From assembly GCA_047233565.1 (NCBI GenBank), contig JBKSUH010000001.1:1-52992 (forward strand): DNA of 52,992 nt, in the 5' to 3' direction. The notes beneath the pieces are model-generated. The model was not told the DNA's origin, made no database searches, and was given only the letters and a program-made list of their open reading frames with translations. Each line of letters begins with the position of its first letter. Positions within the stretch are counted from its first letter, which is position 1. Origin of the DNA: Alistipes sp. (GTDB lineage: Bacteria > Bacteroidota > Bacteroidia > Bacteroidales > Rikenellaceae). Made by a program: the position numbers and the translations under genes. Below are positions 700 through 18,770 of the stretch, piece by piece.

Positions 700-715
700 T
701 AAGGAGACCGAACAG

Positions 716-2819
716 ATGGCAACCAGAGATTTACATTACACTCGCAATATCGGTATCATGGCACACATCGATGCCGGTAAGACCACCACGTCGGAGCGGA
801 TCCTTTTTTACACGGGTAAAACCCACAAGATCGGTGAGGTACACGAAGGCGGCGCTACGATGGACTGGATGGTTCAGGAGCAGGAGCGCGGTATCACCAT
901 TACCTCGGCCGCTACCACCGCATTCTGGAACTATAAGGACAAACAGTACCAGATCAACCTGATCGACACCCCGGGACACGTCGACTTTACGGTCGAGGTG
1001 GAGCGTTCGCTCCGCGTGCTGGACGGCGCCGTTGCGACGTTCTGCGCCGTAGGCGGCGTAGAGCCCCAGTCGGAGACCGTATGGCGCCAGGCGGACAAGT
1101 ACAATGTCCCCCGTATCGGCTACGTCAACAAGATGGACCGCACGGGCGCCGACTTCTGGCCGTGTGCGCACAGATCAAGGAGCACTTCGGTGCTACGGCC
1201 CTTCCGGTCGTCCTGCCGATCGGTGCCGAGGACAAGTTCGAAGGATTGGTAGACCTTATATATAATAATGCGATCTATTACTACGACGACAAGTCCGTCC
1301 GCGATAACTTCGAACTGAAGGAGATTCCCGCCTCGATGGCCGAGGAGGCTGCCGAATGGCGTGCGAAACTCATCGAAGAGGTCGCTTCGACCGACGAGGT
1401 GCTGATGGAGAAGTTCTTCGAGGATCCCGATTCGATCACCCCCGAGGAGCTGCTCGCAGCCATCCGCAAGGCTACGATCTCGATGCAGGTCGTTCCGATG
1501 CTCTGCGGCTCGTCGTTCCACAACAAAGGCGTACAGAAACTGCTCGACTATGTCATTGCGTTCCTGCCCTCGCCGCTGGACGTGCCCGCCGTGACGGGTA
1601 TCAACCCCAAGACCGAGCAGGAAGAGGTTCGCCACGCTCGAGGCGATCCGTTCTGCGGTCTGGCGTTCAAGATCGCTACCGACCCGTTCGTAGGCCGTCT
1701 GGCTTTCGTGCGCGTTACTCGGTAAACTGATGCCGGTTCCTACATGGCACCCGCAGCGGCAAGCGCGAGCGTATCAGCCGTATTTACCAGATGCACGCCA
1801 ACAAGCAGAACCCCATGGAGACCGTATCGGCCGGCGACATCTGCGCTGCCGTAGGTTTCAAGGAGATCCATACGGGCGACACGCTCTGCGCCGAGAACGC
1901 ACCGATCGTCCTGGAGCAGATGACCTTCCCCGAACCGGTGATCGGCCTGGCCGTCGAGCCCAAGACCCAGAAGGATCTGGACAAGCTCGGCATCGCCCTG
2001 TCGAAACTGGCTGAGGAAGACCCCACCTTTACGGTTCACACCGACGAGGATTCGGGCCAGACCGTCATCAGCGGTATGGGTGAGTTGCACCTCGACATCA
2101 TCGTCGACCGTCTGCGCCGTGAGTTCGGCGTCGAGATCAACCAGGGTGCCCCCCAGGTCAACTACAAGGAGTCGCTTACCAAGACGGTTCAGCACCGCGA
2201 GGTGTTCAAGAAGCAGACCGGTGGCCGTGGTAAGTTCGCCGACATCATCTTCGAGATCGGCCCTGCCGACGACGGTGCGATGGGCCTTACGTTCGTTGAC
2301 CAGGTCAAGGGCGGTAATATTCCCAAGGAGTTCATCCCTGCGGTGCAGAAGGGCTTTGCTTCGGCGATGACCAACGGTGCGTTGGCCGGTTACAAGATGG
2401 ACTCGATGAAGATTACGCTGCTCGACGGTTCGTTCCACCCCGTGGACTCCGACCAGCTGTCGTTCGAAATCGCTGCCCGCAACGGTTATCGCAACGCTGC
2501 CCCCAAGGCCGGCTCGGTGATTATGGAGCCCATCATGTCCGTGGAGGTCGTGACCCCCGAGGAGAACATGGGCGACATTATCGGCGACCTGAACAAGCGC
2601 CGCGGCCAGATCACCGGCATGGAGTCGAAAGGCACCGCCCGCGTGGTGAAAGCCAAGGTTCCCCTGTCGGAGATGTTCGGCTATGTGACCGTACTGCGTA
2701 CGATCTCGTCGGGCCGTGCAACCTCGTCTATGGAGTTCTCGCACTTCGAGGAGGTTCCTGCCAACCTGGCTAAGGAGATCATCGAGAAAGCGAGTGGTAA
2801 ACGTAAGGATATAGAATAA
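716..2819 (+). CDS. fusA: Elongation factor G (split by several apparent sequencing frameshifts)
   Basis: [45 protein letters not shown] and SEMFGY are spread over ORFs 605-1252, 1081-1725 and 1791-2819; ATG at 716. Confidence 0.96.
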
Positions 2820-2827
2820 GCAAACAT

Positions 2828-3133
2828 ATGAACCAGAAGATTAGAATCAAGTTAAAGTCATTCGATCACAATCTCGTGGACAAGTCGGCCGAGAAGATTG
2901 TGAAGACCGTGAAGAGCACGGGCGCCGTTGTAAGCGGCCCGGTGCCCCTTCCCACGCGCAAGCAGATTTTCACGGTGAACCGCTCGACTTTCGTCAACAA
3001 GAAAGCCCGCGAGCAGTTCCAGCTCTGCACCTTCAAGCGTATCCTCGACATCTATTCGTCGACGCCCAAGACGATCGACGCACTGATGAAGCTGGAACTC
3101 CCCTCGGGTGTGGAGGTCGAAATCAAAGTGTGA
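2828..3133 (+). CDS. rpsJ: 30S ribosomal protein S10
   Basis: [12 protein letters not shown] ... GPVPLPT ... [11 protein letters not shown]. Confidence 0.98.
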
Positions 3134-3205
3134 TAACGGAAGGCTTGTACCTATATTAGTATAGCACGAAAGATCACTTTATTTATAACAAACAATCGAC
3201 AACAA

Positions 3206-3820
3206 ATGTCAGGACTTATTGGAAAGAAAATCGGAATGACTTCCGTTTACAGTGCCGAGGGTAAGAATATACCATGCACTGTCATTGAGGCTGGGCCGTG
3301 CGTTGTTACGCAAATCAAGACCGTGGAGAAGGATACCTACGAAGCGGTACAGATTGCCTATGACGAGAAAAGTGAAAAGCACACCAGCAGCAGTTTGTTA
3401 GGTCACTTCAAGAAAGCCGGCACTACCCCCAAGCGCAAGATGGCTGAATTCTAGGGTATGCCCGAAGTGAATCTCGGCGACACGCTCACCGTAGACCTCT
3501 TCTCGGAGGAGGACTGGGTCGACGTGACCGGGATATCGAAAGGTAAAGGCTTCCAGGGCGTTGTGAAACGCCACGGTTTCGGCGGCGTGGGCGGCCAGAC
3601 CCACGGCCAGCACAACCGTCAGCGCAAACCCGGTTCGCTGGGTGCGTCGTCCTATCCCTCGCGTGTCTTCAAGGGCAAGCGTTTGCCCGGCCAGATGGGT
3701 GGCGAGCAGGTCAAGGTTTTGAACCTGCGTGTTTTGAAAGTTATTCCCGAAAGCAACCTTATCCTCGTGAAAGGTTCGATCCCGGGTGCAAAAGGTGCTT
3801 ATTTAACAATTGAGAAGTAG
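3206..3820 (+). CDS. rplC: 50S ribosomal protein L3 (one in-frame TAG at 3452-3454, probably an error)
   Basis: [10 protein letters not shown] and [15 protein letters not shown]; ORFs 3206-3454 and 3458-3820 are in the same frame. Confidence 0.96.
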
Positions 3821-3821
3821 T

Positions 3822-4447
3822 ATGGAATTAGCTGTTTTAAACACACAAGGAAAGGAAACGGGTCGTAAGGTAGTCCTTTCGGATGCCGTTTTCGGCGTGG
3901 AGGCTAATGACCACGCTATCTACCTGGACGTGAAGCAGTATCTCGCTGACCAGCGCCAGGGTACGCACAAGTCGAAGCAGCGCAACGAGGTTGCCGGTTC
4001 GACGCGTAAGCTCAAGCGCCAGAAAGGCACCGGCGGTGCCCGTGCCGGCAGCATCAAGTCCCCCCTCTTCCCGGGAGGCGGCCGCATCTTCGGTCCCCAG
4101 CCCGCGATTACAGCTTCAAGCTCAACAAGAAGCTCAAGCAGCTGGCCCGCCGCAGCGCACTGACCTACAAGGCACAGGCCGGCGTCATCAGCGTAGTGGA
4201 GCCCATCTCGATGGATGCCCCCAAGACCAAGGCCGTCGTTGCCCTGGCCGATGCGCTGAAAGTAGCCGACAAAAAGGTACTGCTGGTTCTCCCGGAGTCC
4301 AATGCAAACCTTCAGCTCTCGTGCCGCAACCTCCCCTACGTACAGCCCGTGCTGGCGCAGAACGTCTGCACGTACGACGTGATGAACGCTTCGGCGATCG
4401 TGATGGTGGAAGGCGCTGAGAATGTATTGAATACGATGTTAGCTTAA
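3822..4447 (+). CDS. rplD: 50S ribosomal protein L4 (frameshift near 4100)
   Basis: [34 protein letters not shown]-terminal part in ORF 4196-4447. Confidence 0.95.
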
Positions 4448-4463
4448 AAACGCAAGACACACA

Positions 4464-4754
4464 ATGGAAATTATTATTAAGCCGGTTTTGACCGAGAAAA
4501 TGACGATTCAGGGCGAAAAGTTGAATCGCTACGGTTTTATCGTTGACGTGAGGGCTAACAAGCTGCAGATTCGCAATGCCGTAGAACAGATGTACAACGT
4601 CGTCGTGACGGATGTGAACACCGTGAACTACATGGGCAAACTCAAGAGCCGCTACACCAAGGCCGGTCTCTTGGAGGGTCGCGCTAACAACTTCAAGAAG
4701 GCTATCGTCACCTTGAAGGACGGAGATAAGATAGATTTTTACAGTAATATCTAA
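4464..4754 (+). CDS. rplW: 50S ribosomal protein L23
   Basis: [10 protein letters not shown] ... ANKLQI ... KKAIVTL. Confidence 0.97.
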
Positions 4755-4759
4755 CGGAG

Positions 4760-5584
4760 ATGGCAGTAAAAAAATTTAAACCTGTTACCGCAGGTACGAG
4801 ACATAAGATTATCGGCACGTTCGAGGAAATCACGACGAACAAGCCTGAGAAATCGTTGCTCAGCCCCAAAAAGAGCTCGGGTGGACGTAACAACTCTGGT
4901 AAGATGACGGTTCGCTACATCGGCGGCGGTCACAAGCAGATGTATCGTAACATCGACTTCAAGCGCACGAAGGACGGCATTGCTGCAACTGTAAAATCTG
5001 TCGAGTACGACCCCAATCGTACTGCACGTATTGCACTTCTGGTATACGCCGACGGTGAGAAAAGCTACATCATCGCACCGAACGGCCTCCAGGTGGGCCA
5101 GACCGTAATGAGCGGCGCAGGCGTTGCTCCCGAGGTCGGAAACACGCTCTTCCTGAGCGAGATTCCGCTGGGTACGGTCATCCACAATATCGAACTCTAC
5201 CCCGGCCAGGGAGCCGCCATGGCTCGTTCCGCCGGTTCTTACGCCCAGTTGCTGGCTCGTGAGGGCAAATTCGCCATCATCAAGCTGCCCTCGGGCGAGA
5301 CTCGTATGGTACTCGTAACTTGCCGTGCTACGGTAGGCGTCGTGTCGAATGTCGACCACAACCTCGAAAGCTCCGGCAAGGCAGGTCGTGAGCGTTGGCT
5401 CGGCCGCCGTCCGCGCAACCGCGGCGTGGTGATGAACCCCGTGGATCACCCGATGGGTGGTGGTGAAGGCCGTGCATCCGGTGGTCACCCCCGTTCGCGC
5501 AAGGGTCTGCTGGCTAAGGGTTACAAGACTCGCAACCCGAAGAAGACGACCTCGAAGTTTATTATTTCCAAGAAGAAAAAATAA
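4760..5584 (+). CDS. rplB: 50S ribosomal protein L2
   Basis: [12 protein letters not shown] and [17 protein letters not shown]. Confidence 0.98.
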
Positions 5585-5601
5585 TTAAATAAGAGTACAT
5601 A

Positions 5602-5871
5602 ATGAGCCGTTCATTAAAAAAAGGACCGTTTATCGACCCCAAGCTCGAAGCGAAAGTAGTCGCCCAGGCGGAAGGCAACAAAAAGTCGGTCATCAAAACT
5701 TGGTCGCGTGCAAGTATGATCTCGCCTGATTTCGTAGGTCAGACGATCGCTGTCCACAACGGAAACAAGTTTATTCCGGTGTATGTAACAGAGAACATGG
5801 TAGGGCACAAGCTCGGTGAGTTTGCCCCCACCCGTAACTTCCGCGGTCACGCAGGTAACAAGAAAAAATAG
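5602..5871 (+). CDS. rpsS: 30S ribosomal protein S19
   Basis: [10 protein letters not shown] ... [13 protein letters not shown]. Confidence 0.98.
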
Positions 5872-5878
5872 GTAGAAA

Positions 5879-6289
5879 ATGGGTGCAAGAAAAGCAATAA
5901 AAGCCGAGAAAATCAAGGCTGAAAAGAAGCAGAAGGCAATCGCTATTCTGCGTGATTGCCCGACCTCTCCCCGCAAGATGCGCCTGGTGGCCGACATCAT
6001 CCGCGGCGTGGAGATCAACAAGGCATTGGGCATCCTTCGTTTTTCGAAGAAGGAGGCGTCGATCCGCATGGAGAAACTTCTCAAGTCGGCAATCGCCAAC
6101 TGGGAGGCCAAGAACGAGAACGAGCGCCTGGAAGATACGAAACTGTGTGTGAAAGAGGTGTTCGTTGACGGCGGCCGCATGCTGAAGCGTATTCAGGCTG
6201 CGCCCCAGGGCCGCGCTCACCGAATCCGCAAGCGTTCGAACCACGTGACGATCGTAGTTGACAAAATGGTAACCGTAGAAAACAAGTAA
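5879..6289 (+). CDS. rplV: 50S ribosomal protein L22
   Basis: [14 protein letters not shown] and [11 protein letters not shown], with a Bacteroidota-type basic N-terminal extension. Confidence 0.97.
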
Positions 6290-6293
6290 TCAG

Positions 6294-7085
6294 ATGGGAC
6301 AGAAAGTTAATCCGATAGCAAATCGTCTTGGTATCATCCGCGGTTGGGATTCCAACTGGTTCGGCGGCAAGGACTTCTCAGAGAAGCTGGTCGAGGACGC
6401 CAAGATCCGCAAATACCTGAATGTCCGTCTGGCCAAGGCAAGCATCTCGAAGATCATCATCGAGCGTACGCTGAAGCTGGTCACGGTGACCATTTCCACC
6501 GCTCGTCCGGGTATCATCATCGGCAAGGGCGGCCAGGAGGTCGACAAACTGAAGGAAGAGCTGAAGAAGCTCACCGGCAAGGAGATCCAGATCAACATCT
6601 TCGAGGTGAAGCGCCCCGAGGTGGATGCCGTGATCGTCGGCCAGAACATCGCCCGCCAGCTGGAGGGCCGCGTATCGTTCCGCCGCGCCGTGAAGACGGC
6701 CGTAGCATCGACCATGCGCATGGGTGCCGAGGGTATCAAGATCCAGGTTTCCGGCCGTGTAGGCGGCGCCGAAATGGCCCGCAGCGAAACCATCAAGGAA
6801 GGTCGTATTCCGCTGCATACGTTCCGTGCCGACGTGGATTTCTGCCTGACCGAGGCGCTCACCAAAGTGGGTATCCTGGGTGTGAAGGTCTGGATCTGCC
6901 AGGGCATCGTGTACGGCAAGCGCGACCTGTTCGAAATCGCAGGCGCATCGGCGCAGGCTCCCTCGGGCGACCGCGGTGAGCGTGGCGACCGCGGCGACCG
7001 TCGTGGTCGCGGCGACCGTCGCGGAGACCGGCGTGATCGCGGCGATCGTGGCGGTGACCGTCGTCGCAACAACAATAATAAGTAA
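6294..7085 (+). CDS. rpsC: 30S ribosomal protein S3 with RGD-rich low-complexity tail
   Basis: [17 protein letters not shown] and [11 protein letters not shown]. Confidence 0.98.
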
Positions 7086-7112
7086 GTCGGACCTTTTTAA
7101 AGCAAAACAACA

Positions 7113-7533
7113 ATGTTACAGCCGAAAAAGACCAAATTTAGGAGAATGCAGAAGGGTCGCATGAAGGGTATTGCTCAGAGAGGAAACCAACTTGCAACCG
7201 GTTCGTTCGCAATCAAAGCACTTGAATCCGCATGGATCACAGGTCGTCAGATAGAGGCGGCGCGTCAGGCCATCACCCGTTACATGAAGCGTGAAGGCCA
7301 GCTCTGGATCCGCATCTTCCCCGATAAACCCATCACGAAGAAGCCCGCCGAGGTGCGTATGGGTAAGGGTAAGGGTAATCCCGAAGGATTCGTGGCGCCG
7401 TTACTCCCGGACGTATTCTCTTCGAGGCGGAAGGCGTGCCGAAATCGGCGAGGCCCTGCGTCTGGGCGCCCAGAAACTGCCCATTACCACCAAGTTTATC
7501 GTAAGGCGTGACTACGTCGAAACCACAATCTAA
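7113..7533 (+). CDS. rplP: 50S ribosomal protein L16 (frameshifted near 7400-7445)
   Basis: [16 protein letters not shown] and [13 protein letters not shown]-terminus [16 protein letters not shown] in another frame. Confidence 0.95.
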
Positions 7534-7545
7534 CGAGACGACAAG

Positions 7546-7734
7546 ATGAAAAGTGCAGAAATCAAGGATATTTCGATCAAAGACCTGCAGGAGCGCATCG
7601 AGACTGAGAAGGCTCAGCTTGCAAAGCTGAAGGTGCAGCACGCGGTGTCCCCCGTCGAGAACCCTTCTATCATTAAGAAAAACCGCAGAGATATAGCTCG
7701 TATGCTGACAATCCTGCGTCAAAAAAACGCCTAA
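7546..7734 (+). CDS. rpmC: 50S ribosomal protein L29
   Basis: 62 aa, ENPSIIKKNRRDIARMLT, operon position. Confidence 0.95.
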   Translation: MKSAEIKDISIKDLQERIETEKAQLAKLKVQHAVSPVENPSIIKKNRRDIARMLTILRQKNA

Positions 7735-7746
7735 TAAGGAATAGCT

Positions 7747-8001
7747 ATGGAAAGAAATCTTAGAAAAGAGCGTATTGGGGTGGTTGTCAGCAACAAGATG
7801 GAGAAAACCATTGTGGTTGCAGTAGCACGTAAGGTGAAGCATCCGATCTACGGCAAGTTCGTCAACAAGACGACGAAGTTCGTCGCCGAGTCACTCGACG
7901 AGACCTGCAAGGAAGGCGACACCGTCCGTATCATGGAGACCCGCCCGCTGAGCAAAACGAAGCGTTGGAGATTAGTACAAATTATTGAAAGAGCTAAGTA
8001 A
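7747..8001 (+). CDS. rpsQ: 30S ribosomal protein S17
   Basis: [20 protein letters not shown] and [11 protein letters not shown]. Confidence 0.97.
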
Positions 8002-8003
8002 TT

Positions 8004-8369
8004 ATGATACAGCAGGAAAGTAGACTCGTAGTAGCTGATAACAGCGGTGCAAAGGAAGTTCTCTGCATCCGGGTGCTGGGCGGTACCAAACGCCGCTACG
8101 CATCTATCGGCGATAAGATTGTGGTGGCTGTCAAGAGCGCGACTCCTTCGGGCGATGTCAAGAAGGGTGCCGTGTCGAAAGCAGTCGTCGTAAGAACGAC
8201 CAAGGAAATCAGACGTGCCAACGGTTCGTACATTCGTTTCGACGACAACGCCGTGGTGCTGCTTAACAACCAGGGTGAAATGCGCGGTACTCGTATATTT
8301 GGCCCCGTAGCTCGTGAGCTGCGCGACCAGTATATGAAGATTATCTCCCTCGCACCCGAAGTATTGTAA
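8004..8369 (+). CDS. rplN: 50S ribosomal protein L14
   Basis: [15 protein letters not shown] and [12 protein letters not shown]. Confidence 0.98.
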
Positions 8370-8389
8370 TCATAAAAACAATTTCGGAT

Positions 8390-8713
8390 ATGTCAGTGAA
8401 ATTACATATTAAGAAAGGGGATATGGTGCAGGTCATCGCCGGTGACAACAAGGGCCAGCAGGGCAAAGTCCTGAAGGTCGAAGCTGAAAAGCAGCGTGCC
8501 ATCGTCGAGGGGGTGAACCTTTGCAAGAAGGCCACCAAACCCAATGCGCAGAACCCCCAGGGTGGTATCGTCGAGAAAGAAGCGCCGATCCACGTATCGA
8601 ACCTGCAGGTGCTCGACCCCAAAGGCGGTAAACCCACCAAAGTCGGTCGCAGGCTCAATGCAAAAGGTAAATTAGTCCGTTACGCTAAAAAGTCAGGGGA
8701 GGAGATCAAATAA
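8390..8713 (+). CDS. rplX: 50S ribosomal protein L24
   Basis: [12 protein letters not shown] and EAPIHVSN. Confidence 0.97.
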
Positions 8714-9273
8714 TGGCATACGTACCTACACTCAAGACACAGTATAAGGAGCAGATCGTAGCTGCCCTTATGAAGGAGTTCGGTTACTCGAGCGTTATGC
8801 AGTGCCCGAAGCTCACGAAGATCGTTATCAACCAGGGTATGGGACAGGCTGTCGCCGATAAGAAACTCATCGACGTGGCCGAGGCCGAGCTGACGCAGAT
8901 CACGGGTCAGAAAGCCGTGCAGACGCGTTCGCGCAAGGACATCTCCAACTTCAAGCTGCGCAAGGGCATGCCGATCGGCGTGCGCGTGACGCTGCGCGAT
9001 ACGAAGATGTACGAATTCCTCCAGCGCCTGATCGCCGTGGCGCTCCCCCGTATCCGCGACTTCAAGGGTATCAACGAGAAGTTCGACGGCCAGGGCAACT
9101 ATACCCTCGGCATCACCGAGCAGATCATCTTCCCGGAGATCGACATCGACAAGATCACCAAGATCTTCGGTATGGAGATTACGTTCGTTACCACGGCCAA
9201 GACCGACGAGGAGGCGTATGCCCTGCTCCGCGAATTCGGCCTCCCTTTCAAAAACGCTAAAAAGAATCAATAA
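8713..9273 (+). CDS. rplE: 50S ribosomal protein L5
   Basis: [23 protein letters not shown] and LPRIRDFKG. Confidence 0.98.
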
Positions 9274-9276
9274 GCT

Positions 9277-9573
9277 ATGGCAAAAGAGTCAATGAAGGCA
9301 CGCGAGGTAAAACGCGTGAAACTCGCAAACCGCTATGCTCACAAGCGCGAGGAGATTGCTGCCAAGGTGAAGAGCGGTGAGATGGATCACGAGGAGGCAT
9401 GGATCGCACTGTCGAAACTGCCCCGCAACTCGAATCCCATCCGCCAGCACAACCGCTGCAAGATCACGGGCCGTCCCAAAGGCTACATCCGCCTGTTCGG
9501 CATCAGCCGTATCCAGTTCCGCGAGATGGCTTCGAAGGGCCTGATTCCCGGCGTGAAGAAAGCAAGCTGGTAA
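9277..9573 (+). CDS. rpsN: 30S ribosomal protein S14, long zinc-independent type
   Basis: [10 protein letters not shown] ... [10 protein letters not shown] ... IPGVKKASW; only one Cys. Confidence 0.97.
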
Positions 9574-9574
9574 T

Positions 9575-9620
9575 ATTTTCGGATGCCGGATCATATCCGG
9601 TATCCGAAAATTCATTTTCT
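9575..9620 (+). terminator. Terminator-like hairpin immediately after rpsN
   Basis: ATTTTCGGATGCCGGAT-CAT-ATCCGGTATCCGAAAAT (9575-9611, 17-bp stem with one G.U) followed by TCATTTTCT. Confidence 0.7.
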
Positions 9621-10200
9621 GCCGGGAGGCAATCCGAAGGGGAGGGAGTAGGGCTATGAAGGCTCTAAGGTAGGCTAAGTTCGTCCGAAGGGAGGGACAA
9701 GGTTTGCCGGTTAAGCTCATCTGAAGGAGAAATCCCGGATACGAGTCCGGATTTTGAGGGCGCAAGCCCGTGGACGGACGGCTGTCGCTGAGACGGCCCG
9801 GCGTCGGAGAGGGGCTTTGCAGGAGGGGAAACCCGGAATGCGGAGCGTGAATCCGGCGATTGTGCGCAGGCCGATGAAGCCTGCCGCAGTCCGATACCGC
9901 AGAGATCGGGGCTTATATGGGTGCAGAACCCGAGTAGTTACGTCGCAATGTCGAGGAAAGTGCCGCCGCAAGCGGTAACTTCTCGGCGGCGGGGCGGAAA
10001 TCGAGGGGTTAGGCATTTGGTTACAAATTTCTCGACCGAAGGGCCGGGGAGGGGTATCGCCGATTGCGGCGGCTCTCTTCCGAAGGGTCATCGGCTGTAG
10101 TGCCGACCGGGGATTTGTACGGGTTATGTTAGCAACGCATCCGTGCTAACATTGTCCGTATTCCGGGGCCGGGGCCTAAAAACGCCGAAAACAGGGCGTT
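9620..10200 (+). ncRNA. Candidate structured RNA: array of nearly contiguous hairpins, family unknown
   Basis: More than 12 hand-folded stems, many with G.U pairs valid only on the + strand; GNRA loops; no credible ORF. Confidence 0.35.
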
Positions 10201-10202
10201 AG

Positions 10203-10234
10203 CTTGGTTTTTTGAGAAATTATACGTATATTTG
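10203..10234 (+). promoter_or_regulatory. Bacteroidota sigma-A promoter upstream of rpsH
   Basis: cTTG (10203-10206), 20-nt spacer, TATATTTG (10227-10234); matches the -33 TTTG / -7 TAnnTTTG consensus. Confidence 0.75.
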
Positions 10235-10399
10235 CGCGCTTTATACCCCGGGCGTAACCCCCGTGCGAAGGGCGCGAAGGCGCTGGGAATGAGGCGCAAA
10301 ACAACGAGACATCCGAGGCGGCGGTAAGCCTGTTAGGACTTTAAGGCGCTGAGGGACAAATAATTAACTTATTACTTTAATTTTTAACTTCTATTCGTT

Positions 10400-10798
10400 A
10401 TGACTGATCCTATTGCGGACTTTCTGACCAGAATTAGAAACGCAGTGAAAGCCAACCACAAGGTGGTTGAAGCTCCTGGCTCAAAAATTAAGCAGGAAAT
10501 CACTAAGATTCTTTACGAGCAGGGTTACATCCTCGCTTACAAATTCGACACCGACGAGAAAGGTCACCCGTCGATCAAAATCGCGCTCAAGTGGGACGCT
10601 GCCACCAAGGGCAACGCCATCAAAGACCTGAAGCGCGTGAGCCGTCCCGGTCTTCGCCAGTATGTCTCGGTGGGCGATATGCCCCGCGTGCTGAACGGCC
10701 TGGGCATCGCCGTGCTCTCGACTTCGAAAGGCATCATGACCGACGCCAAGGCCCGTAAGGAAAACGTGGGCGGCGAGGTGCTGTGCTACATCTACTAA
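10400..10798 (+). CDS. rpsH: 30S ribosomal protein S8
   Basis: MTDPIADFLTRIRNA, SRPGLRQY and GGEVLCYIY. Confidence 0.98.
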   Translation: MTDPIADFLTRIRNAVKANHKVVEAPGSKIKQEITKILYEQGYILAYKFDTDEKGHPSIKIALKWDAATKGNAIKDLKRVSRPGLRQYVSVGDMPRVLNGLGIAVLSTSKGIMTDAKARKENVGGEVLCYIY

Positions 10799-10822
10799 CG
10801 GAAATTTTTAAACGCAAGAACA

Positions 10823-11410
10823 ATGTCAAGAATTGGTAAATTACCTGTAAACCTGCCCGCCGGCGTTACCGTAGAGGTTTCGGCCGACAATGTGGTAAGC
10901 GTGAAAGGGCCACTCGGGACGCTGAGCCAGAAAGTTGACTCGGACATCAAGGTAGAGGTCGGCACGCACAAGGACGTTCACACGGGCAACGAGGCTCCCG
11001 CCGTGCTCGTATCGCGTCCTACCAACCAGCCCCGCCACCGTTCGCTGCACGGCCTGTACCGTGCGCTGATCAACAACATGGTCGTCGGCGTATCGAAGGG
11101 CTACGAAATCAAACAGGAACTCGTGGGCGTCGGTTTCAAAGCCGAAGTCAAGGGCCAGATCCTCGAAATGAGTCTCGGTTACTCGCACGACACGCATTTC
11201 ATGCTTCCCAAGGAGGTTACCGCTACGGCCGTGACGGAGAAGAAGGGCAACCCGATCGTAACGCTGAAGAGCATGGACAAGCAGCTCGTCGGCCAGGTCG
11301 CTGCCAAGATCCGTTCGCTGCGCAAGCCGGAGCCGTACAAGGGCAAGGGTATCAAGTTCGTCGGCGAACAGCTGCGTCGCAAGGCGGGTAAATCAGCAGG
11401 TGCTAAATAG
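10823..11410 (+). CDS. rplF: 50S ribosomal protein L6
   Basis: MSRIGKLPV and RKPEPYKGKGI. Confidence 0.98.
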   Translation: MSRIGKLPVNLPAGVTVEVSADNVVSVKGPLGTLSQKVDSDIKVEVGTHKDVHTGNEAPAVLVSRPTNQPRHRSLHGLYRALINNMVVGVSKGYEIKQELVGVGFKAEVKGQILEMSLGYSHDTHFMLPKEVTATAVTEKKGNPIVTLKSMDKQLVGQVAAKIRSLRKPEPYKGKGIKFVGEQLRRKAGKSAGAK

Positions 11411-11426
11411 TAAATAGTTTAGAGTT

Positions 11427-11789
11427 ATGTCACTGAACAAGATAGAAAGAAGAGAGAGGATCAAGATGCGTATCCGCAAGATCGTGAGTGGTACGCCCGA
11501 ACAGCCTCGCATGACTGTATATCGTAGCAACAAGCAGATCTACGTGCAGTTTATTGATGACCTCGCAGGTGTGACCCTGGCCACGGCATCCTCGCTGGAC
11601 AAGGAGGTGGCGGAAGCCGCCGCCGGCAAGAACAAGTGCGACGTGGCCGCCCTGGTGGGCAAACTGGCCGCCGAGCGTGCTGCCGCCAAAGGCATTTCGA
11701 CCGTAGCGTTCGACCGCAACGGCTACCTGTATCACGGAAGAGTTAAACAGCTGGCCGAAGCAGCACGCGAAGGCGGTCTTAAATTCTAA
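11427..11789 (+). CDS. rplR: 50S ribosomal protein L18
   Basis: RSNKQIYVQ and [13 protein letters not shown]. Confidence 0.98.
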
Positions 11790-11795
11790 GCGATT

Positions 11796-12313
11796 ATGTC
11801 AAATACCAACATAAAGAAAGTACGCACCAGCGACCTCGAGCTTAAGGACAGACTCGTAAGCATTCAGCGTGTTACCAAGGTAACCAAGGGAGGTCGCACA
11901 TTCAGTTTCTCGGCCATTGTCGTCGTAGGTAATGAGGACGGTGTCGTGGGCTACGGCCTGGGCAAGGCTTCGGAGGTTCAGTCGGCCATCGCCAAGGGCG
12001 TGGAGGACGCAAAGAAGAACCTGGTGAAGATCCCCGTTATCAACGGTACGATTCCCCATAAGCAGGAGCTCCGTTACGGTGGTTCGCTCGTCATGATCCG
12101 CCCGGCCGCCCCCGGTACGGGTATCATCGCCGGCGGTGCCATGCGTGCCGTGCTGGAGTCGGTGGGCGTGAAGAACGTGCTTGCCAAGAGCAAGGGCTCT
12201 TCAAATCCCCACAACCTGGTGAAGGCGACCATCGGCGCACTGTGCGAGCTGCGCGATGCCCCAGCATCGCCCGCGTGCGCGGTATCTCGATGGACAAGGT
12301 GTTTAACGGTTAA
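11796..12313 (+). CDS. rpsE: 30S ribosomal protein S5 (frameshift near 12262)
   Basis: [10 protein letters not shown] and PGTGIIAGG; true end ...DKVFNG* at TAA 12311-12313. Confidence 0.96.
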
Positions 12314-12327
12314 TTCTCAAGAAGAAC

Positions 12328-12569
12328 ATGGCAAGATTGAAAATCACCAGGTCAAAAGCCGCATCGGCTCCACGGAGCGTCAGTGCAGAACCTTGACGCG
12401 CTGGGTCTGAAAAGGATCAACGCGAGCGTCGAGCACGACGACTCGGTGATCATAAAGGATGATTGGCGCGTGAAGCACCTCGTGAAGGTCGAGAAGTAGC
12501 CCCGCCAGAAGGCTGCCCCAAGGCCAAGAAAGCCGAGGTCAGGAGGAGGCTGCACAGGCCGCAGAATAA
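12328..12569 (+). CDS. rpmD: 50S ribosomal protein L30 with Ala/Lys/Glu-rich C-terminal extension (frameshifted, not in ORF track)
   Basis: [19 protein letters not shown] ... [10 protein letters not shown] ... RVKHLVKVE, reconstructed across deletions; lies between rpsE and rplO. Confidence 0.88.
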
Positions 12570-12594
12570 GTTTAACAGCTAACGGACTATAACA

Positions 12595-13038
12595 ATGGAA
12601 CTCAATAATCTCAAACCCGCAAAGGGTTCAACGCATCACGATAAACGGATCGGCCGCGGTGCAGGTTCGGGCCACGGCGGCACGGCCACCCGTGGACACA
12701 AGGGTGCACAGTCGCGTTCGGGTTACTCGCGCAAGCTCGGCTTCGAGGTGGCCAGATGCCGCTTCAGCGTCGCCTCCCAAGTTCGGTTTCACGAATCTGA
12801 AACGAGTTGAATTCAAGGCCATCAACCTCTCGACGCTCGAGGAGCTGGCAGCCAAGAAATCGCTCACGGAGGTTACGGTCGAACGCTCATCGCCGCAGGT
12901 TTCATCTCGTCGAACGACAAGGTGAAAATCCTCGGTAACGGTACGGTTACCAAGGCGCTGAGCGTGAAGGCTCACGCATTCTCGAAGAGCGCCGAGGCGG
13001 CCATCGTGGCAGCCGGCGGCAGCGTCGAAAAACTGTAA
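12595..13038 (+). CDS. rplO: 50S ribosomal protein L15 (frameshifted)
   Basis: [25 protein letters not shown] and VKILGNG; ends ...GGSVEKL*. Confidence 0.95.
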
Positions 13039-13059
13039 GAACCCTAGAAACCGAAAATT

Positions 13060-14436
13060 ATGAATCAGTATCTCGTTGTTGGTATCGTCTTTTTAGTGGT
13101 AATCGCTCTTTTGGCGACCAACAAGAAATTGGTTGAAACGCTCAAGAATATCTACAAGATCGAGGAGCTGCGCAAACGTGTGATCTACACGATCGGGCTG
13201 CTGCTGGTCTACCGCTTGGGTAGTTTCGTGGTGATTCCGGGTATCAACCCCAACGCCCTGGGCGAGGGGTCGGCGCTTGCCAGCCAGCTCGACGGCAACG
13301 GACTTCTGGGTCTGTTGAACGTCTTTTCCGGCGGTGCATTCGGCAATGCGGCCATCTTTGCACTCGGAGTCATGCCGTACATCACCGCCTCCATCATCAT
13401 CCAGCTCATGGGTATGATGATCCCGTATTTCCAGAAGATGCAGAAGGAAGGTGAAAGCGGCCGCCGCAAAATGAATCAGTGGACGCGCTTCCTTACCATC
13501 GGCGTGCTGATCCTCCAGGGCCCGGCGTACATCGCCAACCTGTACCATCAGGTGCCCTCTGCATTCGTTTACGGCAACTCGTTCGGCTTCGTAGCCTATG
13601 CGACGACGATCCTCATCGCCGGTACCATGTTCATTATGTGGCTCGGCGAGAAGATCACGGACAAGGGTATCGGCAACGGTATCTCGCTGATAATCATGAT
13701 CGGTATCGTGGCCCGTTTGCCCCACGCCCTGTTGGCCGAGGTCAACGCGCGTTTCCAGACCGCCAGCGGTAGCGCCATCATGCTTATCCTCGAGCTGGTG
13801 TTGCTGTTTCTGGTCTTCATGGCTACGATCGCCCTGGTACAGGCAGTCCGCAAGGTACCTGTACAGTATGCAAAGCGTATCGTCGGTAACAAACAGTACG
13901 GCGGTGTACGTCAGTACATCCCCCTGAAGATGAATGCTGCGAATGTGATGCCCATCATCTTCGCGCAGGCTCTGATGTTTATCCCGGCGCTGTTCTCCGG
14001 TACGGCCTTCGCAGCTGCTTTCAGCTCGATGACCGGTTTCTGGTACAACTTCACGCTTGCAGTGCTGGTAATCGCGTTCACCTACTTCTACACCGCGATT
14101 ATCATCAACCCCCAAATGATGGCCGATGACATGAAGCGAAACGGCGGCTTTATCCCGGGTGTGAAACCGGGTAAGCAGACCGTGAACTACATCGACACCA
14201 TCATGACGCGTATCACGCTCCCCGGCTCGTTCTTCCTGGCCATCGTGGCGATCCTGCCCGCGCTGGCAATGAAGTTCCTGGGCATCCAGCAGGCGTTCGC
14301 CTACTTCTACGGAGGTACGTCGCTGCTGATCATGGTCGGCGTGGTGCTCGACACTCTGAAGCAGATCGAGAGCTACCTGCTGATGCGTCATTACGATGGT
14401 CTGATGAAGACCGGACGTATCCAGGGTCGTCATTAG
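13060..14436 (+). CDS. secY: Preprotein translocase subunit SecY
   Basis: FALGVMPYITASIIIQL, GIGNGISLII, FIPGVKPG and GGTSLLIMVGV. Confidence 0.98.
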   Translation: MNQYLVVGIVFLVVIALLATNKKLVETLKNIYKIEELRKRVIYTIGLLLVYRLGSFVVIPGINPNALGEGSALASQLDGNGLLGLLNVFSGGAFGNAAIFALGVMPYITASIIIQLMGMMIPYFQKMQKEGESGRRKMNQWTRFLTIGVLILQGPAYIANLYHQVPSAFVYGNSFGFVAYATTILIAGTMFIMWLGEKITDKGIGNGISLIIMIGIVARLPHALLAEVNARFQTASGSAIMLILELVLLFLVFMATIALVQAVRKVPVQYAKRIVGNKQYGGVRQYIPLKMNAANVMPIIFAQALMFIPALFSGTAFAAAFSSMTGFWYNFTLAVLVIAFTYFYTAIIINPQMMADDMKRNGGFIPGVKPGKQTVNYIDTIMTRITLPGSFFLAIVAILPALAMKFLGIQQAFAYFYGGTSLLIMVGVVLDTLKQIESYLLMRHYDGLMKTGRIQGRH

Positions 14437-14468
14437 GAGTTTTTCCCGAAGAGTTCTTAACGAAGAGA

Positions 14469-15245
14469 ATGATCTATTTAAAGACAGACGAGGAGATAGA
14501 GCTGCTCCGCGAGAACAACATCCTGGTGTCGAAGACACTGGCGGAAGTGGGTCGCCACATCCGGCCGGGTGTCACCACCAAGTTTTTGGACTCGGTTGCC
14601 GAGGATTTTATCCGCGCACACGGAGCAGTTCCCGCCTTCCTCGGGTATCAGGGATTTCCCGCTTCGTTGTGTGTATCGGTAAACGAACAGGTAGTTCACG
14701 GTATCCCATCCTCGAAATGCGTCCTCAGAGAGGGCGACATCGTTTCGGTCGATTGCGGTACGTTTATGAAGGGGTTTGTTGGTGATTCGGCGTATACGTT
14801 CGCCGTTGGAGAGGTTGCCGGGGAAGTTAGGCAGCTGATGGAGGTCACCAAAGAGGCTCTTTATAAAGGTACGGCACAGGCTAAGGCCGGCAACCGCGTA
14901 GGCGACGTGTCGGCAGCCGTGCAAGAGTACGCCGAAAGTTTCGGCTACGGTGTGGTGCGGGAATTGGAAGGACATGGGTTGGGTCGGAAAATGCACGAAG
15001 ACCCCGGTGTCCCCAATTACGGAGCACGCGGCAGGGGGCCGCTCCTCAAGGAAGGAATGGTCATCTGTATCGAGCCCATGATAAATATGGGTACCAAAGC
15101 GGTGGTTTTTGAAAGGGATGGCTGGACAGTCCGCACGCGCGACCATAAACCCGCGGCGCACTACGAGTTCGCCGTTGCGGTTCGTAAGGACGGGCCCGAC
15201 GTGCTGACGGACTTTAGTATCATCGAACAGGCAATAAACAAGTAA
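14469..15245 (+). CDS. map: Methionine aminopeptidase type I
   Basis: SVNEQVVHGIP, DCG...GDSAYT, GHGLG..MHEDP and IEPMIN. Confidence 0.97.
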   Translation: MIYLKTDEEIELLRENNILVSKTLAEVGRHIRPGVTTKFLDSVAEDFIRAHGAVPAFLGYQGFPASLCVSVNEQVVHGIPSSKCVLREGDIVSVDCGTFMKGFVGDSAYTFAVGEVAGEVRQLMEVTKEALYKGTAQAKAGNRVGDVSAAVQEYAESFGYGVVRELEGHGLGRKMHEDPGVPNYGARGRGPLLKEGMVICIEPMINMGTKAVVFERDGWTVRTRDHKPAAHYEFAVAVRKDGPDVLTDFSIIEQAINK

Positions 15246-15251
15246 GACTCT

Positions 15252-15469
15252 ATGGCAAAACAGGCTGCTATTGAAAGGGACGGTACGATTATCGAAGCCT
15301 TGTCCAACGCGATGTTCCGCGTCGAGCTGGACAACGGCCACGTGCTCACCGCCCACATCTCGGGGAAGATGCGTATGCACTACATCAAGATCCTCCCGGA
15401 GATAAAGTTAAAGTGGAGATGACGCCCTACGATTTGACGAAGGGACGTATATCTTTCCGGTACAAATAA
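15252..15469 (+). CDS. infA: Translation initiation factor IF-1 (1-nt deletion near 15400)
   Basis: [48 protein letters not shown] ... [16 protein letters not shown]. Confidence 0.95.
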
Positions 15470-15489
15470 CATTAGATTGCTTGAAAATC

Positions 15490-15606
15490 ATGAAAGTAAA
15501 AGCATCCATCAAGAAAAGAAGCGAGGATTGCAAGATTGTGAAGCGTAAGGGGAAACTCTACGTCATTTGCAAGAAGAATCCCAAGTTTAAAATGCGCCAA
15601 GGGTAA
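15490..15606 (+). CDS. rpmJ: 50S ribosomal protein L36
   Basis: [38 protein letters not shown] (38 aa, below ORF-track cutoff). Confidence 0.96.
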
Positions 15607-15643
15607 TGTTTAAACGGTTTAGTAAAAAAGAAAAAGATTTTAT

Positions 15644-16024
15644 ATGGCACGTATAGTCGGTGTAGATTTACCAAAAAATAAAAGGGGCGAGATCGGCCTG
15701 ACCTATATCTACGGTATCGGTCGTTCGACGGCCCGCAAGATTCTCGAGGTCGCTGGCATCAGCTACGACCTCAAAGTCCAGGATTGGTCGGACGACCAGG
15801 TCGGTGCGATCCGTTCGACGATCGCTGACCTGGGTATCAAAGTCGAGGGCGAATGCCGTTCGGCCGTCCAGCTCAACATCAAGCGCCTGATGGATATCGG
15901 CTGCTACCGCGGCATCCGTCACCGCCTGGGTCTTCCCGTTCGCGGTCAGTCGACCAAGAACAACGCACGTACCCGTAAGGGCCGCAAGAAGACTGTCGCA
16001 AACAAGAAAAAGGCAACAAAGTAA
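15644..16024 (+). CDS. rpsM: 30S ribosomal protein S13
   Basis: LTYIYGIG and [26 protein letters not shown]. Confidence 0.98.
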
Positions 16025-16037
16025 TCTTTAGAGAATT

Positions 16038-16427
16038 ATGGCAAAGAAAACTGGAACAGTTAAGAAAAAGGTTGTTAAGGTCGGTGCCGTTGGCAATGCC
16101 TACGTTCACTCCACTTTCAACAACGTAATCATCACTATCACCAACGAGGTGGGTGACGTCATCAGCTGGTCGTCGGCCGGTAAGATGGGTTTCCGTGGTT
16201 CGAAGAAGAATACTCCGTATGCAGCACAGACCGCTTCGGCCGACTGCGCAAAGGTCGCTTACGACATGGGCCTGCGCAAGGTGAAAGTGTATGTCCAGGG
16301 CCCGGGCGCCGGACGTGAGTCGGCCGTGCGCACCATCCACGGCGCCGGTATCGAGGTGATGGAGATCATCGACGTTACGCCGCTGCCGCATAACGGTTGC
16401 CGTGCTCCTAACCGCCGCCGCGTATAA
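16038..16427 (+). CDS. rpsK: 30S ribosomal protein S11
   Basis: [14 protein letters not shown] and [11 protein letters not shown]. Confidence 0.98.
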
Positions 16428-16476
16428 TTTGCGTCGTGGTAAGGAATATTTCTAAGGTTTTAAAAAAGTCAAAACA

Positions 16477-17084
16477 ATGGGAAAATACATAGGACCAAAA
16501 TCGAAGATCGCCAGAAAGTTCGGCGAAGCTATTTACGGGGCGGACAAGGTGCTTGAGAAACGCAACTTTCCTCCCGGACAGCACGGTCTGGCGCGCAAGC
16601 GCAAGAAGGTGTCGGAGTACGGCACGCAGTTGAGCGAGAAGCAGAAGGCAAAGTATACGTACGGCCTGCTCGAAAAGCAGTTCGCACGCACCTACGACCA
16701 GGCTGCGCGTATGGGCGGTATCACGGGCGAGAACCTGCTGAAGCTGCTCGAATGCCGCCTGGACAATGTTGTTTACCGCTTGGGTATCGCCCCGACGCGT
16801 GCAGCTGCCCGCCAGCTCGTTTCGCACTGCCACATCTGCGTGAATGGCAGCGTCGTGAACATCCCCTCGTACTCGCTGCGTGCGGGTGACGTGGTGTCCG
16901 TTCGCGAGAAGTCGAAGAGCCTGGAAGTGATCTCGGCATCTCTGGCCGGCGGTTCGAAGAGCCGCTACGCTTGGCTGAGTGGGATAACGCCTCGATGAGC
17001 GGCAAGTTCCTGCAGAAGCCTGAGCGCGAGGAGATCCCTGAAAACATCAAGGAGCAGCTCATCGTCGAGTTGTACTCGAAGTAG
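16477..17084 (+). CDS. rpsD: 30S ribosomal protein S4 (frameshift near 16985)
   Basis: PGQHG and [13 protein letters not shown]; ends [10 protein letters not shown] (TAG 17082-17084). Confidence 0.96.
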
Positions 17085-17108
17085 TAATCAAACAAATTCA
17101 AATATATT

Positions 17109-18099
17109 ATGGCAATATTAGCATTCCAGAAACCTGAAAAGGTTATTATGCTTGAATCCACTTCATCGTTCGGAAAGTTCGAGTTCCGGCCGCTGGAGCC
17201 CGATTCGGTATGACTGTCGGTAACGCTTTGCGTCGTATTCTGCTCTCTTCGCTGGAGGGTTACGCAATCACGACTGTCAAGGTAGCCGGTGTCGACCACG
17301 AGTTTGCCGCTATCCCCGGCGTGATGGAGGATATGTTGAAAATCATCCTCAATCTGAAGCAGGTTCGTTTTATCCGCACAGTCGATAATCAGGATGCCGA
17401 GAAGGTTTCCATTAACGTTGCGGGTGTGACGGAGCTGACTGCCGGATATATTTCAAATTACCTTTCGTTCTTCAAGGTGTTGAACCCCGATCTGGTGATC
17501 TGCCACCTCGCGCCCGGCACGAAGCTGCAGATGACCCTCACGATCGGTAAGGGGCGCGGTTACGTTTCGGCAGAGGAGAATACCCCCGCCGAGTGCGAGT
17601 TCGGCACCCTTCCGATCGACTCGATCTTCACGCCGATCAAGAACGTAAAGTATTCCATCGACAACTACCGTGTCGAGCAGAAGACCGACTACGAGAAGTT
17701 GAACCTGGAGATTACTACCGACGGGTCGATTCACCCCAAAGAGGCTCTGAAAGAGGCTGCAAAGATCCTTATCCAGCACTTCATGCTCTTCTCCGACGAG
17801 AAGATCACCGTCAACATGGAGGATACCAACGGTACCGAAGAGTTCGATGAGGATGTACTCCACATGCGCCAGCTGCTGAAGACCAAGCTTTCGGATCAGG
17901 ATCTGAGCGTCCGTGCCCTGAACTGTCTGAAAGCCGCCGACGTGGACACCGTGGGGGACCTCGTGAAGCTCAACCGCAACGACCTGCTGAAGTTCCGCAA
18001 CTTCGGCAAGAAGTCTTTGACGGGCTTGACGAGCTGCTGACCTCGCTCAACCTTAAGTTCGGTATGGACGTATCAATCTACAAACTTGACAAAGATTAA
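17109..18099 (+). CDS. rpoA: RNA polymerase subunit alpha (frameshifts near 17200 and 18025)
   Basis: [32 protein letters not shown] and FRNFGKKSL. Confidence 0.96.
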
Positions 18100-18101
18100 T
18101 T

Positions 18102-18701
18102 ATGAGACACAATAAGAATTTTAACCACCTTGGCCGTCAGGCGGGACACCGTAAAGCGTTGATGTCGAATATGGCTTGTCGCTCATCCTGCACAAGCGTA
18201 TCGAGACCACCGTTGCCAAAGCCAAGGCCGTTCGCCAGTTCATCGAACCGCTGGTGACCAAGTCGAAGGACGACACGACGCACTCGCGCCGTATCGTTTT
18301 CTCGTACCTCAAGCAGAAAGAGGCCGTAACCGAGTTGTTCCGCACCATCGCGCCGAAGATCGCCGATCGTCGGGCGGTTACACCCGCATCCTGAAGACCG
18401 GTTTCCGTCTGGGCGACGCTGCCGACATGTGCATCATCGAGTTCGTCGATTTCAACGACGCTACACGCTGGGCATCGCTCCCGCAGCCGCTGCCGAGGCT
18501 AAACCCAAGACGCGCCGTTCGCGCAAACCCGCAGCGAAGAAGACCGACGCTGTCGAGGAGGCTACCGTTGTCGAGGGCGAAGCCAGAAAGCCGCACCAAG
18601 AAGGCCGCTGCTCCGAAGGCTGCGAAACCGGCTGCTCCCAAAGCGGCCAAGGTTGCCGCCCGAAGGTTGCCAAGAAGACCAACGTGGGCAAGAAAATGTA
18701 G
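18102..18701 (+). CDS. rplQ: 50S ribosomal protein L17 with long Ala/Lys-rich tail (several frameshifts)
   Basis: [29 protein letters not shown] and [16 protein letters not shown]; tail ends KKTNVGKKM*. Confidence 0.93.
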
Positions 18702-18717
18702 TTTTCCGTTTAATCGG

Positions 18718-18770
18718 AAAACGATCGAAAATCCGGATACCCCGATGGGTGTCCGGATTTTGTCGTTTGT
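18718..18770 (+). terminator. Intrinsic terminator ending the ribosomal operon
   Basis: AAAATCCGGATACCC-CGAT-GGGTGTCCGGATTTT, extended by AAACGA/TCGTTT. Confidence 0.8.

What the first reader, a model, noticed from the sequence alone, without database searches (positions are those of the whole stretch)
9620..10200. About 590 nt of back-to-back, strand-specific hairpins inside the ribosomal cluster: candidate novel large structured RNA
Seen by hand folding on the + strand: TGCC-GGGA-GGCA (9620-9631); TAGGGCT/GGCTCTA (9649-9667); AAATCCCGGAT/GTCCGGATTT (from 9730); GGGC-GCAA-GCCC (9758-9769); GACG..GGCTGTC/GACGGCC..CGTC (9773-9805); GGG-GAAA-CCC (~9826-9834); GCAGGC/GCCTGC (~9866-9884); TGCCGCCG/CGGCGGCG (9961-9991); TCGAGGGGTT/AATTTCTCGA (10001-10035); GGGGAGGGG..TCGCCG/CGGCGG..CTCTCTTCC (10046-10081); TACGGG..ATGTTAGCA/TGCTAACAT..TCCGTA (10118-10160); AACGCC/GGCGTT (~10181-10200). 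Many pairs are G.U, which would be C.A mismatches on the minus strand, and several loops are GNRA. Both argue for structure at the RNA level on the + strand. There is no credible ORF, and I cannot match it to RNase P, tmRNA, SRP or a group I/II intron. Inference: an unannotated ncRNA made by read-through of the r-protein operon, an RNA-processing or anti-Rho spacer, or a decayed structured mobile element.
Basis: partly seen in the sequence, partly recalled or inferred. Interest (0 to 1): 0.75.

Follow-up and report, generated by a model that had tools for sequence, protein, structure and literature searches.

The report
New structured RNA in Alistipes ribosome operon
Most species of the gut bacterial genus Alistipes that were searched carry a conserved folded RNA of about 400 bases in the middle of their main ribosomal-protein gene cluster; it matches no Rfam family and probably helps balance the two halves of that cluster.

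Summary
Real, and more than loose hairpins. The rpsN–rpsH spacer of this Alistipes genome holds a single-copy + strand RNA motif (9743–10160) with no Rfam match. Across 62 orthologous spacers it has three linked domains. In the core, 25 of 33 pairs show compensatory change; four further helices pass a partner-swap test. It was gained once and lost once within Alistipes and is missing from 150 other Bacteroidota searched. It lies upstream of a Bacteroidota-type rpsH promoter motif, so it ends the fusA–rpsN half of the cluster rather than leading rpsH. RNase P, SRP and tmRNA sit elsewhere; no 6S was found. Leads, none shown: the invariant tip resembles the S8 site of 16S helix 21 minus one base; a hairpin resembles 23S helix 20 (L24/L4 site); the last hairpin resembles the 23S precursor stem, a likely RNase III target. 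Best reading (0.55): a cis-acting feedback or processing element. The scan's earlier notes held no match.

The parts
9277..9573 (+). rpsN (S14), last gene before the element
   Evidence: ORF and translation
9575..9742 (+). Variable stretch after rpsN with a 17-bp hairpin (9575-9611); not part of the conserved motif
   Evidence: stop-to-element distance 37-675 nt in relatives; terminator-like hairpin upstream of the element in only 18 of 62
9743..9914 (+). Domain A: helix PA1 (9743-9755 with 9901-9913) closing a three-way junction with the small hairpin PA2 (9758-9769, preceded by GA) and a variable arm PA3 (about 9770-9900). PA2 resembles 23S helix 20
   Evidence: anchored in 57 of 62 spacers; swap test PA1, PA2, PA3 each 0/5000; profile match to H20
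9915..9917 (+). Invariant AUA linker
   Evidence: invariant in 61 of 61 rows
9920..10017 (+). Domain B: helix P2 (9920-9931 with 10006-10017), internal loop with GUA (9934-9936) and GAR (10003-10005) like a bulged-G motif, long hairpin P3 (9940-9997)
   Evidence: GTA in 56 of 62, GAR in 59 of 62; the motif name is recalled
9957..9981 (+). Near-invariant tip of P3, AAAGUG (9957-9962) and UAACUU (9976-9981); resembles the S8 core of 16S helix 21 lacking position 641
   Evidence: exact in 60 of 62 (these bases were also the selection pattern); only such site in window 2300-16500
10022..10119 (+). Helix P4 (10022-10034 with 10108-10119) enclosing a variable insert; its 3' strand can pair instead with the tail after P5
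   Evidence: swap tests 0/5000 for both pairings; insert size varies, 22-476 nt between P2 and P5
10120..10167 (+). Hairpin P5 (core 10126-10134 with 10144-10152, variable loop) and short tail; core resembles the 23S precursor stem
10204..10234 (+). Bacteroidota sigma-A-type promoter motif for rpsH: TTG (10204-10206) and TAnnTTTG (10227-10234)
   Evidence: TAnnTTTG in 62 of 62 element-bearing, 25 of 34 element-lacking Rikenellaceae, 1 of 49 other Bacteroidota spacers; only such box in window 2000-20000; consensus from PMC7366714 passages
10400..10798 (+). rpsH (S8), first gene after the promoter

Best explanation
A new cis-acting structured RNA at the 3' end of the fusA-S10-spc(rplN-rpsN) transcript of Alistipes, balancing the two halves of a ribosomal-protein cluster that Rikenellaceae have split with a promoter before rpsH. 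Shown: conserved three-domain + strand structure, fixed place, single copy, vertical inheritance. Inferred, in falling order of support: (1) it is made by read-through from rpsN; (2) free ribosomal proteins bind it through rRNA-like sites, S8 at the P3 tip (about 0.3) and/or L24/L4 at helix-20-like parts (about 0.3); (3) binding shifts P4 against an extended P5, giving or hiding a stem long enough for RNase III (about 0.3), which sets the stability of the upstream mRNA (retroregulation) or read-through into rpsH.
For: All model hits at E below 1e-7 in genomes lie between rpsN and rpsH, one per genome; of 120 metagenome pattern hits, 81 have rpsN or rpsH beside them on the same strand and none of the strong model hits was seen beside another gene. 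fusA and rpsJ are 8 nt apart, so no S10 leader exists, and this spacer holds the only promoter box of window 2000-20000. No terminator-like hairpin upstream in 44 of 62. No covarying helix closes the 5' and 3' ends (198/5000), as expected for an mRNA-embedded element. One RNA-library contig of a relative runs rplE to rplF across the spacer (one study; DNA not excluded). The tip keeps 8 of the 9 helix-21 core bases of the closest relative's 16S and is the only S8-like site in 14 kb. A profile built from domain A alone ranks 23S H20 first, above all 300 shuffles, in 11 of 20 Alistipes 23S copies; H18-H19-H20 is the L4/L24 site (PMC6426284, passages) and both genes lie upstream. P5 shares six base pairs with the 23S precursor stem; RNase III needs about 22 bp (PMC6212723, passages) and its gene is present in 5 of 5 genomes.
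Against: No binding, cleavage or regulation was measured. Position 641 belongs to a base triple described as important for S8 binding (PMC4176348, passages) and is missing. In the closest relative's own rRNA neither profile scored above shuffles, and the domain-B resemblance to H20 is not significant (best p 0.09). All rRNA resemblances were spotted by eye first and several rRNA sites were tried. The P4/P5 energy gap spans -12 to +14 kcal/mol and is within 3 kcal in only 19 of 49. The RNA lies upstream of the rpsH promoter, so it cannot control transcripts started there. A terminator-like hairpin precedes it in 18 of 62, this genome included. One Alistipes clade has lost it, though RNase III is kept there.
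Confidence: 0.55

Rival explanations
1. A stand-alone ncRNA cut out of the operon transcript and acting in trans, for example the 6S RNA that has not been found in Rikenellaceae, or a protein scaffold with a tertiary fold.
For: No 6S, 6S-Flavo or Bacteroidales-1 hit in 5 complete Rikenellaceae genomes and only a terminator after rplT in at least four of the five. Bacteroidales-1 is called the Bacteroides 6S homologue (10.1101/2024.04.05.588293, passage). Size, modular inserts and invariant loop bases are typical of large ncRNAs (own knowledge).
Against: Length 270-804 nt, median 390, in 52 fully anchored copies, with three branches and no closing stem, unlike the roughly 180-200 nt 6S rod (recalled). 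The two element-lacking genomes tested lack a 6S hit as well, so the gap is not filled in a complementary way. Never moved from the locus.
Confidence: 0.25
2. A constitutive 3'-end structure (terminator, exonuclease barrier or insulator) that protects the upstream mRNA and shields the rpsH promoter, with no protein sensing.
For: P5 ends 73-77 nt before the -7 box in 41 of 57 copies; a U-rich tail follows a hairpin near or after P5 in 27 of 62.
Against: A barrier needs one hairpin, not invariant internal-loop bases and three covarying domains; 25 of 34 element-lacking Rikenellaceae have the promoter box without it.
Confidence: 0.12
3. A decayed mobile element or palindromic repeat (group I/II intron remnant, REP-like insert).
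For: Arose once in an ancestor of Alistipes; domain order (variable arm, then two adjacent hairpins) loosely recalls group II introns; earlier scan notes describe repeats in such spacers in other taxa.
Against: Single copy, compensatory change throughout, no intron family hit even at E 10, nothing in phages, plasmids or viral contigs.
Confidence: 0.05
4. A DNA-level element (binding sites and an inverted repeat belonging to the rpsH promoter).
For: P5 looks like an inverted repeat at a fixed distance from the promoter.
Against: Arm spacing varies and arms change through G-U wobbles on one strand only.
Confidence: 0.03

Closest known systems
L17 downstream element (RF01708)
   Same: Structured RNA downstream of a ribosomal-protein gene, proposed 3' UTR feedback element, strand argued from G-U pairs and GNRA loops (PMC2864571, passages)
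   Different: No Rfam match; other phylum and gene; this one is multi-domain, 270-804 nt, and followed by a promoter motif
E. coli S8 operator of the spc mRNA (with retroregulation of rplN-rplX)
   Same: Same operon; helix-21-like core; upstream genes controlled from a downstream site (PMC10931766 and PMC3616713, passages)
   Different: The E. coli site overlaps the rplE start and blocks translation; here the site is non-coding, 440 nt before rpsH, and lacks position 641. No canonical S8 site in window 2300-16500
E. coli L4-binding S10 leader and the 23S H18-H19-H20 junction
   Same: Multi-hairpin RNA of the S10 operon competing with 23S domain I for L4; H20-like hairpin here
   Different: The E. 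coli leader is 5' of rpsJ; Alistipes has no room for one, and this RNA is at the far 3' end. The junction would be circularly permuted and lacks the H19 loop
Bacteroidales-1 / 6S RNA (RF01693, RF00013, RF01685)
   Same: Bacteroidota structured RNA; none detected in the five Rikenellaceae genomes searched
   Different: No model match; larger, branched, open-ended
Phage lambda sib retroregulator (recalled)
   Same: Downstream stem whose full form is an RNase III target and destabilises upstream mRNA
   Different: sib is one hairpin set by antitermination; any link here is inferred only

Membership tests
Any Rfam 15 family | Score at or above gathering cut-off | tested here: not met
   0 hits in the window; best E 0.91 (Poribacteria-1, 20 bits against 74) in 9400-10600
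RNase P, SRP, tmRNA | Is the genome's copy of that RNA | tested here: not met
   Copies lie elsewhere in complete element-bearing relatives: RNase P 4 of 4, SRP 3 of 3 (two over cut-off), tmRNA 3 of 3. G000 (60% complete) showed no RNase P hit
6S RNA | Match to RF00013, RF01685 or RF01693 | tested here: not met
   0 of 5 genomes each
6S RNA | Closed rod with central bubble | tested here: not met
   no covarying closing helix; length 270-804 nt
6S RNA | Binds RNA polymerase, templates product RNA | not testable with these tools
   needs pull-down and small-RNA sequencing
S8 operator (helix-21 mimic) | A595 bulge, A596-U644, G597-C643, bulged A642, 598-640 pair | tested here: met
   pairs 62-89, 64-86 in 61 of 61 and 63-88 in 59 of 61 rows; numbering recalled and
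S8 operator (helix-21 mimic) | Nucleotide 641 of the 597-643-641 triple | tested here: not met
   the tip was never found by the canonical scan, only by the scan with 641 deleted
S8 operator (helix-21 mimic) | Binds S8 and represses translation of an overlapping start | not testable with these tools
   no start codon overlaps the site
L4/L24 site (23S H18-H19-H20 mimic) | H20-like hairpin in a three-way junction | tested here: inconclusive
   top rank above shuffles in 11 of 20 23S copies, not in the closest relative; second H20-like fold in only 35 of 62
Ribosomal leader (Eckert and Weinberg 2020) | Lies in the 5' UTR of the regulated genes | tested here: not met
   lies upstream of the rpsH promoter motif in 62 of 62; start site not mapped; not among the 20 motifs as far as Table 1 was shown
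RNase III processing site | About 22-bp stem with preferred pairs | tested here: inconclusive
   extended P5 reaches about 24 bp with internal loops in the window; six pairs shared with the 23S precursor stem; cleavage not tested
Group I/II intron | Catalytic core (group II domain V, group I P7) | tested here: not met
   no hit at E 10

The most novel reading that the evidence does not exclude
A multi-sensor RNA at the 3' end of a giant ribosomal-protein transcript that reads free S8 (made by the downstream half) and free L24/L4 (made by the upstream half) through separate rRNA mimics and couples them, by a helix switch, to RNase III cutting, so balancing small- and large-subunit proteins across a split operon by retroregulation.
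Probability: 0.15. Interest if true: 0.85.

Novelty: new variant of a known kind. Interest (0 to 1): 0.64.

Why it matters
A 2024 review says regulation of the spc operon outside E. coli-like bacteria is unknown (PMC10931766, passage). This motif gives a concrete candidate in a common gut genus with cultured species, and control from a 3' element is called highly unusual in bacteria (PMC2864571, passage). Even if it is a free ncRNA, it is a new covarying RNA family of about 400 nt with an alignment ready for probing or cryo-EM.

Tried and rejected
RNase P look-alike (GAGGAAAGUG): canonical RNase P exists elsewhere. A closing helix P1: 198/5000. Pairing of the PA1 3' strand with the linker after P2: 4834/5000. 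16S 530-loop, 23S H57/H58, H62 and H100/101 look-alikes: seen by eye only; profile scans of the closest relative's rRNA gave no convincing site, and the one scan with a shuffle control did not exceed it. T-loop in PA2: strict pattern in only 17 of 57. A canonical S8 core in the rpsH 5' UTR of the clade that lost the element: present in 13 near-identical sequences, absent in three more distant ones, so not counted as support; a second 5' UTR hairpin there lacks the core. Sigma-70 promoter scan: 0 hits, wrong promoter type. RNA runs: only assembled contigs were on offer, 4 of 16 laid; two had no cover over the element while flanking genes were covered at low depth, which proves nothing, one covered 9784-10034, one spanned it. 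Two metagenome hits with distant rpsN looked like chimeric contigs. One weak model hit outside the genus (E 0.016, G159, not at rpsN) was not followed. Stelzl 2003 on L4 mimicry is not held.

Full report
Setting. The window is the str-S10-spc-alpha ribosomal-protein cluster of an Alistipes: the best named rpsH match, 99% identical, is an Alistipes genome. The finding lies in the 826-nt gap between rpsN (ends 9573) and rpsH (starts 10400).

Observation. The hairpins are there. The + strand folds better than shuffles (z -4.7; minus strand -2.7). A 300-nt window from 9741 scores z -9.0 on + and -0.3 on -, beyond all 45 non-ORF control regions drawn from 169 in this genome; the next window, from 9881, is unexceptional. 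Rfam 15 gives no hit at gathering cut-off in the whole window and nothing better than E 0.91 around the gap.

Orthologues. I cut rpsN-rpsH spacers from loci. After removing exact duplicates, 62 complete spacers carry the core (452-1342 nt), 34 other Rikenellaceae spacers lack it (32-1945 nt) and 49 spacers of other Bacteroidota are 18-162 nt. Eight loose pattern matches in Rikenellaceae spacers and two in partial loci were dropped by eye as chance before the count; none of the five of them later searched with the model scored on the right strand. A covariance model of the core hits 31 of 33 other Alistipes genomes once each, most of them by construction, 1 of 117 other Rikenellaceae weakly and off-locus, and 0 of 150 other Bacteroidota. 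On an rpsN+rpsH tree of 96 rows the element needs two changes: a gain at the base of a well-supported Alistipes clade and a loss in a six-member subclade. It is single-copy in this 60%-complete genome and absent from the phage, plasmid and viral collections. In metagenomes 81 of 120 pattern hits have rpsN or rpsH beside them; most of the rest are short pieces of the same element and nine are unrelated chance matches.

Structure. The core (61 rows) has 14 invariant columns. My 33-pair structure is 87.4% paired, with changes on both sides in 25 pairs and 217 cells; 0 of 500 shuffles reach any measure and slid controls fall to 35-46% (the shuffles ignore relatedness). For helices separated by variable inserts I used a swap test, pairing each species' 5' strand with every species' 3' strand, after dropping 12 near-identical rows: PA1, P2, P3, P4, P5, PA2, PA3 and fixed-anchor repeats of P2 and P4 all give 0 of 5000 permutations as good as the true partners. 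Two unrelated control pairings gave 4313 and 2162, and a closing helix 198. The RNA is therefore an open string: domain A, an invariant AUA, domain B, then P4 and P5. It spans 270-804 nt, median 390, in 52 fully anchored copies; one short copy of about 220 nt lacks a clear domain-A anchor. Two alternative folds also covary: a local 4-bp hairpin inside the P2 5' strand (present in 35 of 62) and pairing of the P4 3' strand with the tail after P5. They may be switches; shared bases and kinship could also explain them.

Transcription context. TAnnTTTG, the Bacteroidota -7 box (PMC7366714, passages), lies downstream of the element in 62 of 62 spacers, in 25 of 34 element-lacking Rikenellaceae and in 1 of 49 other Bacteroidota; it is the only such box followed by a pyrimidine in window 2000-20000. 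P5 ends 73-77 nt before it in 41 of 57. fusA stops 8 nt before rpsJ. So the family appears to have split the cluster before rpsH, and the element ends the upstream half. A terminator-like hairpin precedes the element in 18 of 62. Expression evidence is thin: of 4 RNA runs laid, all as contigs, one 2712-nt contig of a relative spans rplE to rplF and another run covers 9784-10034; strand, ends and level cannot be read, and DNA carry-over is not excluded.

What it is not. RNase P, SRP and tmRNA sit elsewhere in complete relatives. No 6S-type family was found in five complete genomes, which leaves that role open, but size and the lack of a closing stem argue against it.

Mechanistic leads. (a) S8. 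The tip strands match eight of nine core bases of 16S helix 21 of the closest complete relative and are the only S8-like site in 14 kb of the cluster, just upstream of the S8 gene. Position 641, part of an important base triple, is missing; an aptamer with a rearranged core still binds S8 tightly (PMC4176348, passages). (b) L24/L4. A profile of domain A ranks 23S helix 20 first and above all 300 shuffles in 11 of 20 Alistipes 23S copies, but not in the closest relative, whose helix differs. A descriptor of the alternative domain-B fold hits only helix 20 in that rRNA operon (expected 0.05) but was written after seeing the likeness. H18-H19-H20 binds L4 and L24 (PMC6426284, passages); helix names and numbers are from my own knowledge. 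(c) RNase III. The stem that joins the flanks of pre-23S rRNA holds UUGACAU paired with AUGUCAA, and the leader half occurs in 17 of 19 readable 23S loci. P5 holds the same run of pairs, found by a loose pattern in 47 of 62. Extended P5 reaches the roughly 22 bp the enzyme needs (PMC6212723, passages); with P4 formed it is about 15 bp. The two states differ by a median 1.8 kcal/mol with a wide spread.

Prior art. Ten literature searches (listings) showed no description of this motif. Fremin and Bhatt 2021 (passages and Table S1 search) list no Alistipes candidate near rpsN or rpsH, but long table cells were cut and their other supplements were not read. Eckert and Weinberg 2020 (passages) show no S8, S14 or L24 leader in the part of Table 1 displayed. 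The Minerva preprint (passages) scanned 150 genomes and works with an Alistipes locus; its supplements are closed and might list this spacer. Most subscription papers are not searchable. The scan's own notes held no match.

Verdict. A real, previously uncatalogued RNA motif. It works most plausibly like a 3' feedback element of a ribosomal-protein operon (L17 downstream element, spc retroregulation) but is a member of no tested family. Interest 0.64.

Noticed in passing
L051-L053, L224-L236 (rpsH 5' UTR, 248-387 nt from the -7 box): The Alistipes subclade that lost the element has a different long, conserved, structured rpsH 5' UTR; 13 near-identical members hold a canonical S8-like core, three distant members do not. 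A second candidate motif.
   Followed up: partly
L048, L154, L268-L277 (rpsH 5' UTR, about 160-190 nt): A third conserved 5' UTR hairpin in the same loss clade, beginning its tip with AAGUGCC like the element's tip.
   Followed up: partly
window 223-2819, 3206-4447, 7113-7533: fusA, rplC, rplD and rplP are broken into pieces by frameshifts, most likely assembly errors; single-base differences in G/A runs of the spacer against a relative's contigs suggest the spacer may hold such errors too.
   Followed up: no
G240, G236, G222, G104, G160: No 6S RNA family detected in five complete Rikenellaceae genomes, and none evident after rplT; the family's 6S RNA is still to be found.
   Followed up: partly
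L350:847-973: A metagenome contig in which the element breaks off inside P2 and continues into unrelated AT-rich DNA: an insertion or a chimeric contig.
   Followed up: no
L256, L257: 23S rRNA copies in two Alistipes assemblies are only 73-77% identical to the query and lack the leader motif, possibly contaminating contigs.
   Followed up: no
L053:553-2500: A 1.9-kb rpsN-rpsH gap, apparently holding an inserted gene on the opposite strand.
   Followed up: no
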